A stretch of 37,825 bases of DNA from Escherichia phage T7. Shown piece by piece: positions 142 through 37,825 of this stretch. The position numbers were made by a program, and so were the translations under genes. Below the pieces are notes generated by a model that worked only from the letters and a program-made list of their open reading frames with translations, was not told where the DNA came from and searched no databases. Each line of letters starts with the position of its first letter. Positions within the stretch are counted from its first letter, which is position 1. The stretch lies in sequence record MZ375271.1. One strand, given 5' to 3'.

Positions 142-154
142 CTCTGTTACAGTC

Positions 155-322
155 TCCTAAAGTATCCTCCTAAAGTCACCTCCTAACGTCCATCCTAAAG
201 CCAACACCTAAAGCCAACACCTAAAGACCCATCAAGTCAACGCCTATCTTAAAGTTTAAACATAAAGACCAGACCTAAAGACCAGACCTAAAGACACTAC
301 ATAAAGACCAGACCTAAAGACG
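155..322. repeat. Array of short imperfect direct repeats (cctaaag / acctaaagac type) next to the left terminal repeat
   Basis: Reiterated cctaaag-containing units visible by eye; position matches T7 left-end repeat region involved in concatemer processing. Confidence 0.7.
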
Positions 323-1259: not shown

Positions 1260-1390
1260 TGTCTACTACCAACGTGCAATACGGTCTGACCGCTCAAACT
1301 GTACTTTTCTATAGCGACATGGGGCGGCGTGGCATAGACGAAAGGAAAAGGTTAAAGCCAAGAAACTCGCCGCACTTGAACAGGCACTAG
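1259..1390 (+). pseudogene. 0.4: Chimeric 43-codon remnant: 5' part of gene 0.4 joined to sequence from just upstream of gene 0.7 (deletion scar)
   Basis: Starts atgtctactaccaacgtgcaatacgg overlapping the 0.3 stop (taATG); reading frame runs into the 0.7 upstream region and stops at tag 1388..1390. Confidence 0.5.
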
Positions 1391-5892: not shown

Positions 5893-6972
5893 ATGATGAA
5901 CATTAAGACTAACCCGTTTAAAGCCGTGTCTTTCGTAGAGTCTGCCATTAAGAAGGCTCTGGATAACGCTGGATATCTTATCGCTGAAATCAAGTACGAT
6001 GGTGTACGCGGGAACATCTGCGTAGACAATACTGCTAACAGTTACTGGCTCTCTCGTGTATCTAAAACGATTCCGGCACTGGAGCACTTAAACGGGTTTG
6101 ATGTTCGCTGGAAGCGTCTACTGAACGATGACCGTTGCTTCTACAAAGATGGCTTTATGCTTGATGGGGAACTCATGGTCAAGGGCGTAGACTTTAACAC
6201 AGGGTCCGGCCTACTGCGTACCAAATGGACTGACACGAAGAACCAAGAGTTCCATGAAGAGTTATTCGTTGAACCAATCCGTAAGAAAGATAAAGTTCCC
6301 TTTAAGCTGCACACTGGACACCTTCACATAAAACTGTACGCTATCCTCCCGCTGCACATCGTGGAGTCTGGAGAAGACTGTGATGTCATGACGTTGCTCA
6401 TGCAGGAACACGTTAAGAACATGCTGCCTCTGCTACAGGAATACTTCCCTGAAATCGAATGGCAAGCGGCTGAATCTTACGAGGTCTACGATATGGTAGA
6501 ACTACAGCAACTGTACGAGCAGAAGCGAGCAGAAGGCCATGAGGGTCTCATTGTGAAAGACCCGATGTGTATCTATAAGCGCGGTAAGAAATCTGGCTGG
6601 TGGAAAATGAAACCTGAGAACGAAGCTGACGGTATCATTCAGGGTCTGGTATGGGGTACAAAAGGTCTGGCTAATGAAGGTAAAGTGATTGGTTTTGAGG
6701 TGCTTCTTGAGAGTGGTCGTTTAGTTAACGCCACGAATATCTCTCGCGCCTTAATGGATGAGTTCACTGAGACAGTAAAAGAGGCCACCCTAAGTCAATG
6801 GGGATTCTTTAGCCCATACGGTATTGGCGACAACGATGCTTGTACTATTAACCCTTACGATGGCTGGGCGTGTCAAATTAGCTACATGGAGGAAACACCT
6901 GATGGCTCTTTGCGGCACCCATCGTTCGTAATGTTCCGTGGCACCGAGGACAACCCTCAAGAGAAAATGTAA
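5893..6972 (+). CDS. 1.3: ATP-dependent DNA ligase, 359 aa
   Basis: ORF-track 359 aa; adenylation motif EIKYDGVRG visible. Confidence 0.95.
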   Translation: MMNIKTNPFKAVSFVESAIKKALDNAGYLIAEIKYDGVRGNICVDNTANSYWLSRVSKTIPALEHLNGFDVRWKRLLNDDRCFYKDGFMLDGELMVKGVDFNTGSGLLRTKWTDTKNQEFHEELFVEPIRKKDKVPFKLHTGHLHIKLYAILPLHIVESGEDCDVMTLLMQEHVKNMLPLLQEYFPEIEWQAAESYEVYDMVELQQLYEQKRAEGHEGLIVKDPMCIYKRGKKSGWWKMKPENEADGIIQGLVWGTKGLANEGKVIGFEVLLESGRLVNATNISRALMDEFTETVKEATLSQWGFFSPYGIGDNDACTINPYDGWACQISYMEETPDGSLRHPSFVMFRGTEDNPQEKM

Positions 6973-6979
6973 TCACACT

Positions 6980-7011
6980 GGCTCACCTTCGGGTGGGCCT
7001 TTCTGCGTTTA
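6980..7011 (+). terminator. Early (host RNAP) rho-independent terminator TE
   Basis: GC stem ggctcacc-ttcg-ggtgggcc followed by tttctgcgtttat. Confidence 0.85.
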
Positions 7012-7022
7012 TAAGGAGACAC

Positions 7023-7045
7023 TTTTACGACTCACTAAAGGAGGT
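7023..7045 (+). promoter_or_regulatory. T7 RNAP promoter phi1.5 with non-consensus -17..-15 (ttt instead of taa)
   Basis: ttttacgactcactaaaggaggt, +1 at 7040; -14..+6 match class II promoters. Confidence 0.75.
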
Positions 7046-7052
7046 ACACACC

Positions 7053-7142
7053 ATGATGTACTTAATGCCATTACTCATCGTCATTGTAGGATGCCTTGCG
7101 CTCCACTGTAGCGATGATGATATGCCAGATGGTCACGCTTAA
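7053..7142 (+). CDS. 1.5: Gene 1.5 small protein, 29 aa
   Basis: ATG 7053 after RBS aggaggt; MMYLMPLLIVIVGCLALHCSDDDMPDGHA. Confidence 0.6.
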   Translation: MMYLMPLLIVIVGCLALHCSDDDMPDGHA

Positions 7143-7162
7143 TACGACTCACTAAAGGAGAC
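7140..7162 (+). promoter_or_regulatory. T7 RNAP promoter phi1.6
   Basis: taatacgactcactaaaggagac, +1 at 7157. Confidence 0.85.
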
Positions 7163-7167
7163 ACTAT

Positions 7168-7428
7168 ATGTTTCGACTTCATTACAACAAAAGCGTTAAG
7201 AATTTCACGGTTCGCCGTGCTGACCGTTCAATCGTATGTGCGAGCGAGCGCCGAGCTAAGATACCTCTTATTGGTAACACAGTTCCTTTGGCACCGAGCG
7301 TCCACATCATTATCACCCGTGGTGACTTTGAGAAAGCAATAGACAAGAAACGTCCGGTTCTTAGTGTGGCAGTGACCCGCTTCCCGTTCGTCCGTCTGTT
7401 ACTCAAACGAATCAAGGAGGTGTTCTGA
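7168..7428 (+). CDS. 1.6: Gene 1.6 protein, 86 aa
   Basis: ORF-track 86 aa [17 protein letters not shown]... Confidence 0.8.
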
Positions 7429-8010
7429 TGGGACTGTTAGATGGTGAAGCCTGGGAAAAAGAAAACCCGCCAGTACAAGCAACTGGGTGTATAGCTTGCT
7501 TAGAGAAAGATGACCGTTATCCACACACCTGTAACAAAGGAGCTAACGATATGACCGAACGTGAACAAGAGATGATCATTAAGTTGATAGACAATAATGA
7601 AGGTCGCCCAGATGATTTGAATGGCTGCGGTATTCTCTGCTCCAATGTCCCTTGCCACCTCTGCCCCGCAAATAACGATCAAAAGATAACCTTAGGTGAA
7701 ATCCGAGCGATGGACCCACGTAAACCACATCTGAATAAACCTGAGGTAACTCCTACAGATGACCAGCCTTCCGCTGAGACAATCGAAGGTGTCACTAAGC
7801 CTTCCCACTACATGCTGTTTGACGACATTGAGGCTATCGAAGTGATTGCTCGTTCAATGACCGTTGAGCAGTTCAAGGGATACTGCTTCGGTAACATCTT
7901 AAAGTACAGACTACGTGCTGGTAAGAAGTCAGAGTTAGCGTACTTAGAGAAAGACCTAGCGAAAGCAGACTTCTATAAAGAACTCTTTGAGAAACATAAG
8001 GATAAATGTT

Positions 8011-8018
<8 letters not shown>
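7428..8018 (+). CDS. 1.7: Gene 1.7 nucleotide kinase, 196 aa
   Basis: ORF-track 196 aa [13 protein letters not shown]...; start overlaps 1.6 stop (tgATG). Confidence 0.8.
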
Positions 8019-8351
<333 letters not shown>

Positions 8352-9118: not shown

Positions 9119-9538
9119 GTGGAACTGCGGGAGAAAATCCTTGAGCGAATCAAGGTGACTTCCTCTGGGTGTTGGGAGTGGCAGGGCGCTACGAACAATA
9201 AAGGGTACGGGCAGGTGTGGTGCAGCAATACCGGAAAGGTTGTCTACTGTCATCGCGTAATGTCTAATGCTCCGAAAGGTTCTACCGTCCTGCACTCCTG
9301 TGATAATCCATTATGTTGTAACCCTGAACACCGTTCCATAGGAACTCCAAAAGAGAACTCCACTGACATGGTAAATAAGGGTCGCTCACACAAGGGGTAT
9401 AAACTTTCAGACGAAGACGTAATGGCAATCATGGAGTCCAGCGAGTCCAATGTATCCTTAGCTCGCACCTATGGTGTCTCCCAACAGACTATTTGTGATA
9501 TACGCAAAGGGAGGCGACATGGCAGGTTACGGCGCTAA
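9119..9538 (+). CDS. 2.8: Gene 2.8 HNH endonuclease-like protein, 139 aa
   Basis: ORF-track 139 aa; motif HSCDNPLCCNPEHRSIGTPKENSTDMVNKGR; clear paralogy to gene 7.7 product. Confidence 0.8.
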   Translation: MELREKILERIKVTSSGCWEWQGATNNKGYGQVWCSNTGKVVYCHRVMSNAPKGSTVLHSCDNPLCCNPEHRSIGTPKENSTDMVNKGRSHKGYKLSDEDVMAIMESSESNVSLARTYGVSQQTICDIRKGRRHGRLRR

Positions 9539-10423: not shown

Positions 10424-12293
<1,870 letters not shown>

Positions 12294-12692: not shown

Positions 12693-12716
12693 ATTACCTC
12701 AATAGGAGAAATCAAT

Positions 12717-14831
12717 ATGATCGTTTCTGACATCGAAGCTAACGCCCTCTTAGAGAGCGTCACTAAGTTCCACTGCGGGGTTATCTACGACTACTCCACC
12801 GCTGAGTACGTAAGCTACCGTCCGAGTGACTTCGGTGCGTATCTGGATGCGCTGGAAGCCGAGGTTGCACGAGGCGGTCTTATTGTGTTCCACAACGGTC
12901 ACAAGTATGACGTTCCTGCATTGACCAAACTGGCAAAGTTGCAATTGAACCGAGAGTTCCACCTTCCTCGTGAGAACTGTATTGACACCCTTGTGTTGTC
13001 ACGTTTGATTCATTCCAACCTCAAGGACACCGATATGGGTCTTCTGCGTTCCGGCAAGTTGCCCGGAAAACGCTTTGGGTCTCACGCTTTGGAGGCGTGG
13101 GGTTATCGCTTAGGCGAGATGAAGGGTGAATACAAAGACGACTTTAAGCGTATGCTTGAAGAGCAGGGTGAAGAATACGTTGACGGAATGGAGTGGTGGA
13201 ACTTCAACGAAGAGATGATGGACTATAACGTTCAGGACGTTGTGGTAACTAAAGCTCTCCTTGAGAAGCTACTCTCTGACAAACATTACTTCCCTCCTGA
13301 GATTGACTTTACGGACGTAGGATACACTACGTTCTGGTCAGAATCCCTTGAGGCCGTTGACATTGAACATCGTGCTGCATGGCTGCTCGCTAAACAAGAG
13401 CGCAACGGGTTCCCGTTTGACACAAAAGCAATCGAAGAGTTGTACGTAGAGTTAGCTGCTCGCCGCTCTGAGTTGCTCCGTAAATTGACCGAAACGTTCG
13501 GCTCGTGGTATCAGCCTAAAGGTGGCACTGAGATGTTCTGCCATCCGCGAACAGGTAAGCCACTACCTAAATACCCTCGCATTAAGACACCTAAAGTTGG
13601 TGGTATCTTTAAGAAGCCTAAGAACAAGGCACAGCGAGAAGGCCGTGAGCCTTGCGAACTTGATACCCGCGAGTACGTTGCTGGTGCTCCTTACACCCCA
13701 GTTGAACATGTTGTGTTTAACCCTTCGTCTCGTGACCACATTCAGAAGAAACTCCAAGAGGCTGGGTGGGTCCCGACCAAGTACACCGATAAGGGTGCTC
13801 CTGTGGTGGACGATGAGGTACTCGAAGGAGTACGTGTAGATGACCCTGAGAAGCAAGCCGCTATCGACCTCATTAAAGAGTACTTGATGATTCAGAAGCG
13901 AATCGGACAGTCTGCTGAGGGAGACACAGCATGGCTTCGTTATGTTGCTGAGGATGGTAAGATTCATGGTTCTGTTAACCCTAATGGAGCAGTTACGGGT
14001 CGTGCGACCCATGCGTTCCCAAACCTTGCGCAAATTCCAGGTGTACGTTCTCCTTATGGAGAGCAGTGTCGCGCTGCTTTTGGCGCTGAGCACCATTTGG
14101 ATGGGATAACTGGTAAGCCTTGGGTTCAGGCTGGCATCGACGCATCCGGTCTTGAGCTACGCTGCTTGGCTCACTTCATGGCTCGCTTTGATAACGGCGA
14201 GTACGCTCACGAGATTCTTAACGGCGACATCCACACTAAGAACCAGATAGCTGCTGAACTACCTACCCGAGATAACGCTAAGACGTTCATCTATGGGTTC
14301 CTCTATGGTGCTGGTGATGAGAAGATTGGACAGATTGTTGGTGCTGGTAAAGAGCGCGGTAAGGAACTCAAGAAGAAATTCCTTGAGAACACCCCCGCGA
14401 TTGCAGCACTCCGCGAGTCTATCCAACAGACACTTGTCGAGTCCTCTCAATGGGTAGCTGGTGAGCAACAAGTCAAGTGGAAACGCCGCTGGATTAAAGG
14501 TCTGGATGGTCGTAAGGTACACGTTCGTAGTCCTCACGCTGCCTTGAATACCCTACTGCAATCTGCTGGTGCTCTCATCTGCAAACTGTGGATTATCAAG
14601 ACCGAAGAGATGCTCGTAGAGAAAGGCTTGAAGCATGGCTGGGATGGGGACTTTGCGTACATGGCATGGGTACATGATGAAATCCAAGTAGGCTGCCGTA
14701 CCGAAGAGATTGCTCAGGTGGTCATTGAGACCGCACAAGAAGCGATGCGCTGGGTTGGAGACCACTGGAACTTCCGGTGTCTTCTGGATACCGAAGGTAA
14801 GATGGGTCCTAATTGGGCGATTTGCCACTGA
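12717..14831 (+). CDS. 5: T7 DNA polymerase (family A, 3'-5' exonuclease proofreading), 704 aa
   Basis: [28 protein letters not shown]...; internal start of ORF-track 12570..14831 with RBS aggagaaa. Confidence 0.97.
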
Positions 14832-14876
14832 TACAGGAGGCTACTCCAAAGGCATAAAACTATAGGAGAAATTATT

Positions 14877-16432: not shown

Positions 16433-16533
16433 CGTATATTGGTCTGGGTCTTTGTGTTCTCGGAGTGTGCCTCATTTCGTGGGGCCTTTGGGACTTAGCC
16501 AGAATAATCAAGTCGTTACACGACACTAAGTGA
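16420..16533 (+). CDS. 6.3: Gp6.3 small hydrophobic protein, 37 aa, GTG start
   Basis: gtg 16420; VETVAYIGLGLCVLGVCLISWGLWDLARIIKSLHDTK; matches annotated T7 gene position and length. Confidence 0.5.
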   Translation: METVAYIGLGLCVLGVCLISWGLWDLARIIKSLHDTK

Positions 16534-16535
16534 TA

Positions 16536-16605
16536 AACTCAAGGTCCCTAAATTAATACGACTCACTATAGGGAGATAGGGGCCTTTACGATTATTACTT
16601 TAAGA
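16536..16605 (+). promoter_or_regulatory. RNase III processing hairpin R6.5 enclosing the phi6.5 promoter
   Basis: aactcaaggtccc...ggggcctttacgattattac flanking the promoter. Confidence 0.55.
16554..16576 (+). promoter_or_regulatory. T7 RNAP class III promoter phi6.5
   Basis: taatacgactcactatagggaga exact consensus, +1 at 16571. Confidence 0.9.
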
Positions 16606-16630
16606 TTTAACTCTAAGAGGAATCTTTATT

Positions 16631-16885
16631 ATGTTAACACCTATTAACCAATTACTTAAGAACCCTAACGATATTCCAGATGTACCTCGTGCAACCGCTG
16701 AGTATCTACAGGTTCGATTCAACTATGCGTACCTCGAAGCGTCTGGTCATATAGGACTTATGCGTGCTAATGGTTGTAGTGAGGCCCACATCTTGGGTTT
16801 CATTCAGGGCCTACAGTATGCCTCTAACGTCATTGACGAGATTGAGTTACGCAAGGAACAACTAAGAGATGATGGGGAGGATTGA
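16631..16885 (+). CDS. 6.5: Gp6.5, 84 aa
   Basis: ORF-track 84 aa [27 protein letters not shown]... Confidence 0.8.
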
Positions 16886-17560: not shown

Positions 17561-17860
17561 ATGGGTAAGAAAGTTAAGAAGGCCGTGAAGAAAGTCCTCA
17601 AGTCCGTTAAGAAAGTCGTTAAGGAAGGGGCTAGTCCGGTTAAACAGGTTGCTGGCGGTCTAGCTGGTCTGGCTGGTGGTACTGGTGAAGCACAGATGGT
17701 GGAAGTACCACAAGCTGCCGCACAGATTGTTGACGTACCTGAGAAAGAGGTTTCCACTGAGGACGAAGCACAGACAGAAAGCGGACGCAAGAAAGCTCGT
17801 GCTGGCGGTAAGAAATCCTTGAGTGTAGCCCGTAGCTCCGGTGGCGGTATCAACATTTAA
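17561..17860 (+). CDS. 7.3: Gp7.3 tail/adsorption protein, 99 aa, Lys-rich N-terminus
   Basis: ORF-track 99 aa MGKKVKKAVKKVLKSVKKVVKEGASPVKQ... Confidence 0.85.
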   Translation: MGKKVKKAVKKVLKSVKKVVKEGASPVKQVAGGLAGLAGGTGEAQMVEVPQAAAQIVDVPEKEVSTEDEAQTESGRKKARAGGKKSLSVARSSGGGINI

Positions 17861-37414: not shown

Positions 37415-37462
37415 ATGTTCCGCTTATTGTTGAACCTACTGCGGCATAGAGTCAAGTCCTAA
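37415..37462 (+). pseudogene. 19.5: Truncated gene 19.5 remnant, 15 codons (canonical product is about 49 aa)
   Basis: ATG 37415 after RBS agggaggag; MFRLLLNLLRHRVKS then taa; N-terminus matches gp19.5. Confidence 0.45.
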
Positions 37463-37748: not shown

Positions 37749-37825
37749 CTCTGTTACAGTCTCCTAAAGTATCCTCCTAAAGTCACCTCCTAACGTCCAT
37801 CCTAAAGCCAACACCTAAAGCCAAC

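What the first reader, a model, noticed from the sequence alone, without database searches (positions are those of the whole stretch)
6980..7052. Gene 1.4 absent; phi1.5 promoter has lost its native -17 to -15 bases
The TE terminator is followed 11 nt later by phi1.5, whose -17..-15 read ttt rather than taa while -14..+6 are intact (acttttacgactcactaaaggaggt). In canonical T7 the small gene 1.4 sits here and its taa stop supplies promoter positions -17..-15, so removing exactly ATG-to-stop of 1.4 would produce this sequence. The upstream promoter positions contact the RNAP AT-rich recognition loop, so phi1.5 may be weakened, affecting 1.5-1.8 expression.
Basis: partly seen in the sequence, partly recalled or inferred. 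Interest (0 to 1): 0.55.

Follow-up and report, generated by a model that had tools for sequence, protein, structure and literature searches.

The report
Engineered deletion of T7 gene 1.4
The window is a laboratory-made, genome-reduced phage T7 in which the small gene 1.4 was removed exactly from start codon to stop codon, changing two bases at the upstream edge of the next T7 promoter; the construct family is published and the promoter is probably only mildly weakened.

Summary
Against reference T7 (NC_001604) the window lacks bases 7608-7763, which is gene 1.4 from ATG to TAA. The junction lies between window 7025 and 7026 and has no microhomology. In T7 the TAA stop of gene 1.4 is also positions -17..-15 of promoter phi1.5, so the promoter now reads TTTTACGACTCACTAAAGGAGGT (+1 at window 7040). 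Only -16 and -15 changed, both A to T; -17 is T either way.

This is not a natural variant. The 44-nt junction occurs in 63 of 50,697 phage records. Every listed one is a "Mutant Escherichia phage T7 clone T7_nnL/S" (MZ3752xx or OL9647xx). That naming matches the CRISPR/Cas9 iterative genome-reduction study of Yuan et al. 2022, whose "cassette-gene" library deletes whole genes. Sequenced clones from transfers 10 and 20 keep gene 1.4; it is already gone at transfer 30.

Published promoter-variant data predict a reduced but not abolished phi1.5, roughly 15-50% of normal. Phi1.6 is intact 117 nt downstream and the upstream class II promoters are intact, so little effect on genes 1.6-1.8 is expected. 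Novelty: already known. One small lesson follows: 7 of 17 T7 promoters share their first three bases with the preceding gene's stop codon, so deleting an open reading frame (ORF) exactly clips the promoter.

The parts
5893..6972 (+). Gene 1.3 (DNA ligase), intact; the last gene before the terminator
   Evidence: 359-aa ORF; corresponds to T7 6475-7554 at offset 582
6980..7010 (+). TE, the E. coli RNA polymerase terminator of the T7 early region: hairpin 6980-6999 plus T-tract 7000-7010
   Evidence: T7 annotation places TE at 7588, which is window 7006. RNA fold gives GGCUCACC-UUCG-GGUGGGCC, -18.3 kcal/mol, z = -3.3. The simple terminator scan did not call it because the T-run is interrupted.
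7013..7019 (+). Orphaned ribosome-binding site (AAGGAGA) of the deleted gene 1.4; no start codon follows at a usable distance
   Evidence: In T7 this sequence sits 7 nt before the ATG of gene 1.4; in the window it is followed by cacttttacgactc
7025..7026 (.). Deletion junction: T7 7608-7763 (156 bp, gene 1.4 from ATG through TAA) is missing between these two bases
   Evidence: unique placement, 0 nt microhomology; the identical 44-mer occurs in 63 records, all listed ones being CiPGr T7 clones
7023..7045 (+). Phi1.5 class II T7 promoter variant, -17..+6 = TTTTACGACTCACTAAAGGAGGT (+1 at 7040); -16 and -15 are A to T, and -22..-18 are now gacac instead of actgg
   Evidence: Promoter table, T7 against window; pattern match at 7026-7045
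7053..7142 (+). Gene 1.5 (29 aa, MMYLMPLLIVIVGCLALHCSDDDMPDGHA), intact. It is the only gene lying between phi1.5 and phi1.6. The mechanical 49-aa ORF from GTG 6993 is just this frame running on upstream, because the in-frame stop of gene 1.4 was removed.
   Evidence: T7 7791-7880 at offset 738
7140..7162 (+). Phi1.6 promoter, unchanged (TAATACGACTCACTAAAGGAGAC, +1 at 7157); its TAA is the stop codon of gene 1.5
7168..7428 (+). Gene 1.6, intact
   Evidence: T7 7906-8166
12698..12699 (.). Context: a second ORF-exact deletion, gene 4.7 (T7 13927-14334, 408 bp, 0 microhomology)
14846..14847 (.). Context: deletion of gene 5.3 from its ATG (T7 16483-16820, 338 bp, 0 microhomology)
1322..1333 (.). 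Context: about 563-bp deletion of genes 0.4-0.6 between two copies of GGGCGGCGTGGC (T7 1341-1352 and 1904-1915). This is the signature of a spontaneous deletion and contrasts with the gene 1.4 junction.
   Evidence: The paper lists gp0.3-0.6 and gp19.5 as undesigned large-fragment losses.

Best explanation
[quoted passage not shown] It is most likely the deposited clone from about transfer 200, and is a sister of T7_220L. Gene 1.4 encodes a 51-aa hydrophobic protein of unknown function. I infer that it was removed by recombination with a plasmid-borne template whose two 50-bp arms abut the ORF, while Cas9 cut phages that still carried the gene. In T7 the TAA stop of gene 1.4 also forms positions -17..-15 of promoter phi1.5, so the ORF-exact design replaced TAA with TTT, the last three bases of the gene 1.4 leader. 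Positions -16 and -15 are therefore A-to-T transversions in the part of the promoter read by the polymerase's AT-rich recognition loop. The specificity region (-12..-5), the unwinding region and the start site are untouched. I infer that phi1.5 still fires at reduced strength, roughly 15-50% of normal. I also infer that this matters little: T7 RNA polymerase coming from phi1.1A, phi1.1B and phi1.3 crosses this region, and phi1.6 lies intact 117 nt downstream. Shown here: the deletion, its exact ends, its restriction to the engineered lineage, and its stability. Inferred: the recombination mechanism (from the paper's methods) and the size of the promoter effect.
For: The window is more than 99.9% identical to T7 apart from the deletions. 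The gene 1.4 deletion is ORF-exact with 0 nt microhomology, like the gene 4.7 deletion and the ATG-anchored gene 5.3 deletion. The two deletions the paper calls undesigned have 12-nt and 9-nt direct repeats. The junction 44-mer occurs in 63 of 50,697 phage records, and every listed one is an MZ3752xx or OL9647xx 'Mutant Escherichia phage T7 clone'. Clone names T7_30S, T7_130L and T7_220L fit the paper's scheme of transfer number plus large or small plaque, as in T7_300L. [quoted passage not shown] T7_10L, 10S, 20L and 20S still have gene 1.4, while T7_30L and T7_30S do not. The window shares most point mutations with T7_220L and T7_130L. Promoter strength, from the Komura 2018 supplement: -15 A>T 115.7 and -16 A>T 114.5 against a wild-type mean of 169, about 68% each. 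The -17/-16 AT double gives 50%, and TAA>AGG gives 0.9%. One variant carrying TT at -16/-15 gave 0.14 of the multiplicative expectation. A preprint reports that replacing TAATA with another A/T sequence had little effect while CGCGG was strongly deleterious. The variant's score against the 17 natural promoters falls from 33.4 to 23.7 bits but stays above natural phi4.7 at 21.6. Phi4.7 naturally has T at -16.
Against: The exact source record could not be retrieved. The nearest record differs by 14 mismatches and 5 gaps, and MZ375271, the accession expected for T7_200L, is not in the collection. The paper's supplementary tables with cassette designs and accession numbers are not held, so the link between the GenBank series and the paper rests on clone names and matching biology. 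Position -15 is A in all 17 natural T7 promoters, so the -15 T could cost more in vivo than in the in vitro screen. That screen used the class III consensus on short linear templates, with one barcode per variant and roughly 1.5-fold noise between replicate barcodes. No expression data exist for this promoter variant.
Confidence: 0.9

Rival explanations
1. This is a natural T7 relative, or a spontaneous deletion mutant, that happens to lack gene 1.4.
For: Gene 1.4 is poorly conserved. tblastn finds it in only 46 phage records, nearly all T7 itself, with about 5 relatives at 60-66% identity, whereas the flanking region matches 195 records. T7 does lose DNA spontaneously, as this genome's 0.4-0.6 and 19.5 deletions show.
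Against: Both ends fall exactly on the first base of the ATG and the last base of the TAA, with no repeat at the junction. Every listed record with this junction belongs to one engineered lineage, and earlier clones of that lineage still carry the gene. The spontaneous deletions in the same genome have 9-12-nt direct repeats.
Confidence: 0.03
2. The TTT substitution effectively kills phi1.5, and the resulting drop in gene 1.5 (and downstream) expression contributes measurably to the phenotype of these clones.
For: Position -15 is A in 17 of 17 natural promoters and -17..-15 is TAA in 13 of 17. One multi-mutant carrying TT at -16/-15 was 7-fold below the multiplicative expectation. T7 CiPGr mutants are generally less fit than wild type. 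Gp1.5 has a reported host-directed growth-inhibition phenotype when expressed alone.
Against: Single A>T changes at -16 and -15 retain about 68% activity, and A/T-for-A/T swaps in this element are reported as tolerated. Phi1.6 and the three upstream class II promoters are intact. From established T7 knowledge (Dunn and Studier 1983), class II transcripts read through TE towards Tphi. There was no reversion or second-site change within 20 nt of the junction in 63 genomes. The many other deletions and point mutations explain the fitness loss more easily.
Confidence: 0.1
3. This is an assembly or sequencing artefact that collapsed 156 bp.
For: The record does contain one assembly oddity: its last 77 nt repeat window 142-218.
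Against: Sixty-three separately deposited genomes share the junction. The missing segment is not repetitive, and its ends coincide with ORF boundaries.
Confidence: 0.01

Closest known systems
CiPGr genome-reduced T7 clones (Yuan, Shi, Jiang and Ma, Nucleic Acids Res 2022, PMC9825161), e.g. T7_220L MZ375275 and T7_130L MZ375257
   Same: Identical gene 1.4 junction. The same set of deletions as T7_220L (0.4-0.6, 1.4, 3.8, 4.3, 4.7, 5.3, 19.5 and 18 bp in the terminal repeats). Most point mutations are shared, including RNA polymerase V137A and Q184R and phi10 +1 G>T.
   Different: Not identical to any record held. Against T7_220L there are 14 mismatches and 5 gaps, private changes (RNA polymerase V337A, gp16 D316G, an 8-bp deletion at T7 39684-39691) and 77 extra nt at the right end.
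Wild-type T7 phi1.5 class II promoter (T7 +1 at 7778)
   Same: Positions -14..+6 are identical (TACGACTCACTAAAGGAGGT). It has the same downstream gene 1.5, whose ribosome-binding site lies in the first transcribed bases.
   Different: -16 and -15 are T instead of A. -22..-18 read gacac instead of actgg. The promoter now begins 12 nt after the TE T-tract instead of 168 nt.
Natural T7 promoters with non-consensus upstream edges (phi4.7 CTA, phi1.1A and phi4c CAA at -17..-15)
   Same: They show that T7 RNA polymerase uses promoters that depart from TAA at the upstream edge. Phi4.7 has T at -16, like the variant.
   Different: None has T at -15. The natural variants differ mainly at -17.
Classical spontaneous T7 deletion mutants arising between short direct repeats (Studier's early-region deletions; from my own knowledge, not checked here)
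   Same: Loss of non-essential genes while the phage stays viable. This genome's 0.4-0.6 and 19.5 deletions have that signature.
   Different: The gene 1.4 deletion has no repeat at its ends and follows ORF boundaries exactly.

Membership tests
CiPGr 'cassette-gene' deletion mutant of phage T7 | T7 backbone | tested here: met
   All aligned blocks outside the terminal-repeat and right-end regions are 99.9-100% identical to NC_001604; the left-end block is 98.2% and the right-end blocks are lower
CiPGr 'cassette-gene' deletion mutant of phage T7 | Deletion removes the entire annotated gene, as expected for a designed homologous-recombination template (no repeat-mediated ends) | tested here: met
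   T7 7608-7763 is the annotated gene 1.4 coding sequence; 0 nt microhomology. The authors' own records annotate the same ORF as gene 11.
CiPGr 'cassette-gene' deletion mutant of phage T7 | Junction shared with, and restricted to, deposited clones of that study | tested here: met
   63 records, every listed one MZ3752xx or OL9647xx 'Mutant Escherichia phage T7 clone'; the gene is present at transfers 10 and 20 and absent at transfer 30
CiPGr 'cassette-gene' deletion mutant of phage T7 | Documented provenance: the accession is listed in the paper, and the cassette arms and spacers for gene 1.4 are given | not testable with these tools
   Supplementary Tables S1, S3 and S10 are not held; MZ375271 is not in the collection
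T7 RNA polymerase promoter (class II) | Specificity-loop recognition region -12..-5 (CGACTCAC) intact | tested here: met
   Identical to wild-type phi1.5
T7 RNA polymerase promoter (class II) | Unwinding region and initiation site (-4..+6 TAAAGGAGGT) intact | tested here: met
T7 RNA polymerase promoter (class II) | A/T-rich -17..-13 element for the AT-rich recognition loop | tested here: met
   TTTTA is 5 of 5 A/T, as is the wild-type TAATA. Composition rather than exact sequence is reported to matter.
T7 RNA polymerase promoter (class II) | Consensus bases TAA at -17..-15 | tested here: not met
   TTT. -15 T is seen in 0 of 17 natural promoters and -16 T in 1 of 17.
T7 RNA polymerase promoter (class II) | Initiation by T7 RNA polymerase at the predicted +1 | not testable with these tools
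   Needs in vitro transcription or 5'-end RNA mapping
Intrinsic terminator (T7 TE) | G+C-rich hairpin followed by a T-tract | tested here: met
   8-bp stem, UUCG loop, then UUUCUGCGUUU; sequence identical to T7. The generic scan missed it.

The most novel reading that the evidence does not exclude
The clipped phi1.5 (TTT at -17..-15) might be essentially silent in vivo. The lineage might have adapted to altered class II transcription through its fixed RNA polymerase substitutions (V137A and Q184R in the N-terminal promoter-binding domain) and through start-site changes at phiOL (+1 A>G) and phi10 (+1 G>T). The clones would then record co-evolution of T7 RNA polymerase with a perturbed promoter set.
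Probability: 0.06. Interest if true: 0.35.

Novelty: already known. Interest (0 to 1): 0.1.

Why it matters
It matters mainly as a caution. T7 packs its signals so tightly that 7 of its 17 phage promoters (phi1.3, 1.5, 1.6, 2.5, 4.3, 9 and 17) use the TAA stop codon of the preceding gene as their first three bases. Any 'clean' ATG-to-stop deletion of genes 1.2, 1.4, 1.5, 2, 4.2, 8 or 16 therefore also mutates a promoter. The CiPGr authors state that they avoided targeting 'likely regulatory elements', yet the gene 1.4 design clipped phi1.5. Fitness costs assigned to loss of such a gene could partly be promoter effects. For gene 1.4 the effect is probably small. For genome-scan purposes, the finding is explained by known engineering and is not new biology.

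Tried and rejected
1. Natural variant: rejected, because the junction is confined to one engineered lineage.
2. Spontaneous repeat-mediated deletion: rejected, 0 nt microhomology against 9-12 nt at the undesigned deletions.
3. A new fused gene from GTG 6993 to 7142 (49 aa): rejected as a mechanical ORF. The GTG lies inside the TE hairpin with no ribosome-binding site. The frame is open only because genes 1.4 and 1.5 share a frame and the stop codon was deleted.
4. Structured RNA in 6700-7400: only a sub-threshold chance hit (Noro_CRE, 22.8 bits against a gathering score of 35).
5. Sigma-70 promoter or generic terminator scan of 6800-7300: nothing found. TE is real but has an interrupted T-run.
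6. Exact source record: MZ375257 and MZ375259 have the same length (37,825 bp). MZ375257 (T7_130L) has a different deletion pattern, and MZ375259 matched the first 20 kb only in 3 pieces at 98% coverage. MZ375271 is not held.
7. Accession search in the paper library (MZ3752...): only unrelated papers. The paper's supplements are not held. Chan, Kosuri and Endy 2005 is not held.
8. The exact TTTTACGACTCACT... variant is not in the held (truncated) part of the Komura data, so only single and neighbouring variants could be used.

Full report
**What is in the sequence**

Window 6980-7052 reads: TE hairpin (ggctcacc-ttcg-ggtgggcc, 6980-6999), T-tract tttctgcgttt (7000-7010), ataaggagacac, then TTT-TACGACTCACTAAAGGAGGT. 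After that come acacacc and the ATG of a 29-codon ORF at 7053. The hairpin folds at -18.3 kcal/mol, with z = -3.3 against shuffles. The T7-promoter core at 7026-7045 is one of 12 such sites in the window, against 0 expected by chance.

**Comparison with canonical T7**

The region matches phage T7 at 100% identity. Wild-type records align in two pieces, whereas a set of 'mutant T7' records align in one piece. The T7 reference annotates the following:
- ligase gene 1.3 at 6475-7554
- TE at 7588
- gene 1.4 at 7608-7763
- phi1.5 with +1 at 7778
- gene 1.5 at 7791-7880
- phi1.6 at 7895

The reference sequence reads gagacacttt-ATG...tgg-TAA-TACGACTCACTAAAGGAGGT. The last codon of gene 1.4 is therefore positions -17..-15 of phi1.5.

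A blastn of the whole window against T7 shifts offset from 582 to 738 exactly between window 7025 and 7026. Boundary analysis allows only one placement: T7 7608-7763 is missing, 156 bp, with no shared bases at the two ends. Two details need adjusting. Position -17 is T in both versions, so the real changes are -16 A>T and -15 A>T. The five bases upstream of -17 also changed, from actgg to gacac.

**Origin**

The window is T7 starting at reference base 2, and it carries a series of deletions:
- 18 bp in each terminal repeat
- about 563 bp covering genes 0.4-0.6, between two copies of GGGCGGCGTGGC
- gene 1.4, ORF-exact
- 292 bp inside gene 3.8
- 198 bp of gene 4.3
- gene 4.7, ORF-exact
- gene 5.3 from its ATG, 338 bp
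- 189 bp at gene 19.5, between two copies of ATAGAGTCA
- 8 bp at T7 39684-39691

A 44-mer centred on the gene 1.4 junction occurs in 63 of 50,697 phage records. Every one of the 60 listed is 'Escherichia phage T7' with accession MZ3752xx or OL9647xx. The records I opened in that series are titled 'Mutant Escherichia phage T7 clone', for example T7_30S, T7_130L and T7_220L.

This naming (transfer number plus L or S for large or small plaque) matches Yuan et al., Nucleic Acids Res 2022 (PMC9825161), who name T7_300L. [quoted passage not shown] Host cells carry spCas9 and a plasmid library, and each 200-bp cassette holds a spacer and a 2 x 50-bp recombination template. [quoted passage not shown] Plaques were picked every 10 transfers over 300 transfers. 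The paper also lists gp0.3-0.6, gp4.3-4.7 and gp19.5 as undesigned large-fragment losses. That agrees with the repeat-bounded ends I find at the 0.4-0.6 and 19.5 deletions.

Within the series, T7_10L, 10S, 20L and 20S still carry gene 1.4, while T7_30L and T7_30S lack it. By accession the junction-bearing records then run through the rest of the numbered series. The window is nearest to T7_220L, with 14 mismatches and 5 gaps over 37.7 kb, and shares most of its point mutations. The accession numbering predicts T7_200L to be MZ375271, which is the one number absent from the collection. I infer, without proof, that this is the source. The paper's supplementary tables are not held, so the link between paper and records rests on names, design and biology.

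**How the junction arose (inferred)**

Recombination with a template whose arms end at T7 7607 and begin at 7764 joined the gene 1.4 leader (ending ...cacttt) directly to TACGACTC. Cas9 removed phages that still carried the protospacers in gene 1.4, which drove the deletion to fixation between transfers 20 and 30. Fixation therefore reflects counter-selection against the wild-type allele. It is not evidence that the deletion is beneficial.

**Consequence for phi1.5**

The untouched part, -14..+6, contains everything read by the specificity loop, plus the melting and start regions. The altered part is the upstream edge of the A/T-rich element bound by the AT-rich recognition loop (for the domain assignment). 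Four lines of evidence bear on its strength.
- **Natural variation:** among the 17 natural T7 promoters, -17..-15 is TAA in 13, CAA in 2 (phi1.1A and phi4c), and CTA in phi4.7. Position -15 is always A.
- **In vitro screen (Komura et al. 2018, supplementary file S2):** the wild-type promoter averaged 169 RNA/DNA reads. The measured variants were:

| Variant | Reads | Share of wild type |
|---|---|---|
| -15 A>T | 115.7 | about 68% |
| -16 A>T | 114.5 | about 68% |
| -17 T>A plus -16 A>T | 83.7 | 50% |
| TAA>AGG | 1.5 | 0.9% |

  Multiplying the two single effects predicts about 46%. The one held variant with TT at both positions, which also carries -6 and +2 changes, was at 0.14 of its multiplicative expectation.
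- **Preprint 10.1101/619395:** swapping TAATA for another A/T sequence had little effect, while CGCGG nearly abolished the signal.
- **Position-weight score:** a score built from the natural promoters drops from 33.4 to 23.7 bits, which is still above natural phi4.7 at 21.6.

My estimate is a promoter working at roughly 15-50% of its former strength. This is an inference from class III-context in vitro data with about 1.5-fold barcode noise.

**Consequence for gene expression (inferred)**

Phi1.6 is unchanged 117 nt downstream, and phi1.1A, phi1.1B and phi1.3 are unchanged upstream. By established T7 knowledge (Dunn and Studier 1983), TE terminates E. coli RNA polymerase, while class II transcripts made by T7 RNA polymerase continue through it. 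Only the 29-codon gene 1.5 lies between phi1.5 and phi1.6, and it keeps its own ribosome-binding site, the GGAGGT at +1..+6.

The junction 44-mer is identical in all 63 genomes, with no reversion to TAA and no nearby second-site change. This argues against strong selection on this promoter. Gene 1.4 itself is detectable in only 46 phage records, almost all of them T7, consistent with it being dispensable. Gp1.5 has a reported growth-inhibition phenotype linked to the stringent response when expressed alone. Nothing here indicates that its expression is limiting.

**Other checks**

No Rfam family reaches threshold in 6700-7400. No sigma-70-like promoter or generic terminator is called. The 49-aa mechanical ORF from GTG 6993 is only the gene 1.5 frame left open after the in-frame stop of gene 1.4 was removed. 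The orphaned gene 1.4 ribosome-binding site (7013-7019) has no start codon after it.

**A generalisation**

Seven of the 17 T7 promoters (phi1.3, 1.5, 1.6, 2.5, 4.3, 9 and 17) use the preceding gene's TAA as -17..-15. ORF-exact deletion designs therefore clip promoters systematically in this phage, even though the CiPGr authors state that they did not target likely regulatory elements. In this window only the gene 1.4 deletion has that side effect.

**Verdict**

The structural interpretation is confirmed. The functional interpretation is plausible but probably minor. The feature is a by-product of a published engineering design, so it is already known and of low interest, apart from the design caveat.

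Noticed in passing
window 20930 (T7 22904): The +1 base of the strong late promoter phi10 is G>T (TATAGGGAGA becomes TATATGGAGA). The same 45-mer is in 34 CiPGr clones, from MZ375255 (T7_120L by the accession numbering) onwards, and also in MT350293 'Enterococcus phage EFA-2', a 39,964-bp record that looks like T7.
   Followed up: partly
window 386 (T7 405): The +1 base of promoter phiOL is A>G, which turns its start region into the class III consensus GGGAGA. Shared with T7_220L but absent from T7_130L and T7_10L.
   Followed up: partly
window 2998, 3139, 3598 (gene 1, T7 RNA polymerase): Amino-acid changes V137A and Q184R (shared with T7_130L and T7_220L) and V337A (private to this window). 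None lies in the AT-rich recognition loop (residues 93-101, from my own knowledge) or the specificity loop (residues 739-770). Whether they relate to the promoter changes is unknown.
   Followed up: no
window 9333-9334 (gene 2.8, L72R) and 17597-17598 (gene 7.3, T13L): Adjacent two-base substitutions that arose during passaging. They may be Cas9-escape mutations at targeted protospacers; this was not tested.
   Followed up: no
window 37749-37825: The last 77 nt duplicate window 142-218. The sequence runs past the right terminal repeat into left-end unique DNA, which suggests an assembly overshoot across a concatemer junction.
   Followed up: yes
window 97|98 and 37704|37705 (T7 99-116 and 39876-39893): The same 18-bp unit (GGGTTGGGGATGACCCTT) is missing from both terminal repeats, and both copies carry G>T at T7 37 / 39814. 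There is also an 8-bp deletion (CATCCTAT, T7 39684-39691) and a C>A change at T7 39658 near the right end.
   Followed up: partly
window 1322-1333 and 37446-37454: The deletions of genes 0.4-0.6 (about 563 bp) and 19.5 (189 bp) are bounded by 12-nt and 9-nt direct repeats. They look spontaneous rather than designed, matching the 'large fragments' the paper says it did not design.
   Followed up: yes
L002 (T7 reference), promoters phi1.3, 1.5, 1.6, 2.5, 4.3, 9, 17: Seven of the 17 T7 promoters use the TAA stop codon of the preceding gene as promoter positions -17..-15.
   Followed up: yes
window 10512-10515 (T7 11251-11545): The gene 3.8 deletion (292 bp) starts about 26 nt inside the ORF and has a 3-nt TAA overlap, so it is not ORF-exact. 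T7_130L carries a different gene 3.8 allele, so several alleles coexisted in the population.
   Followed up: no
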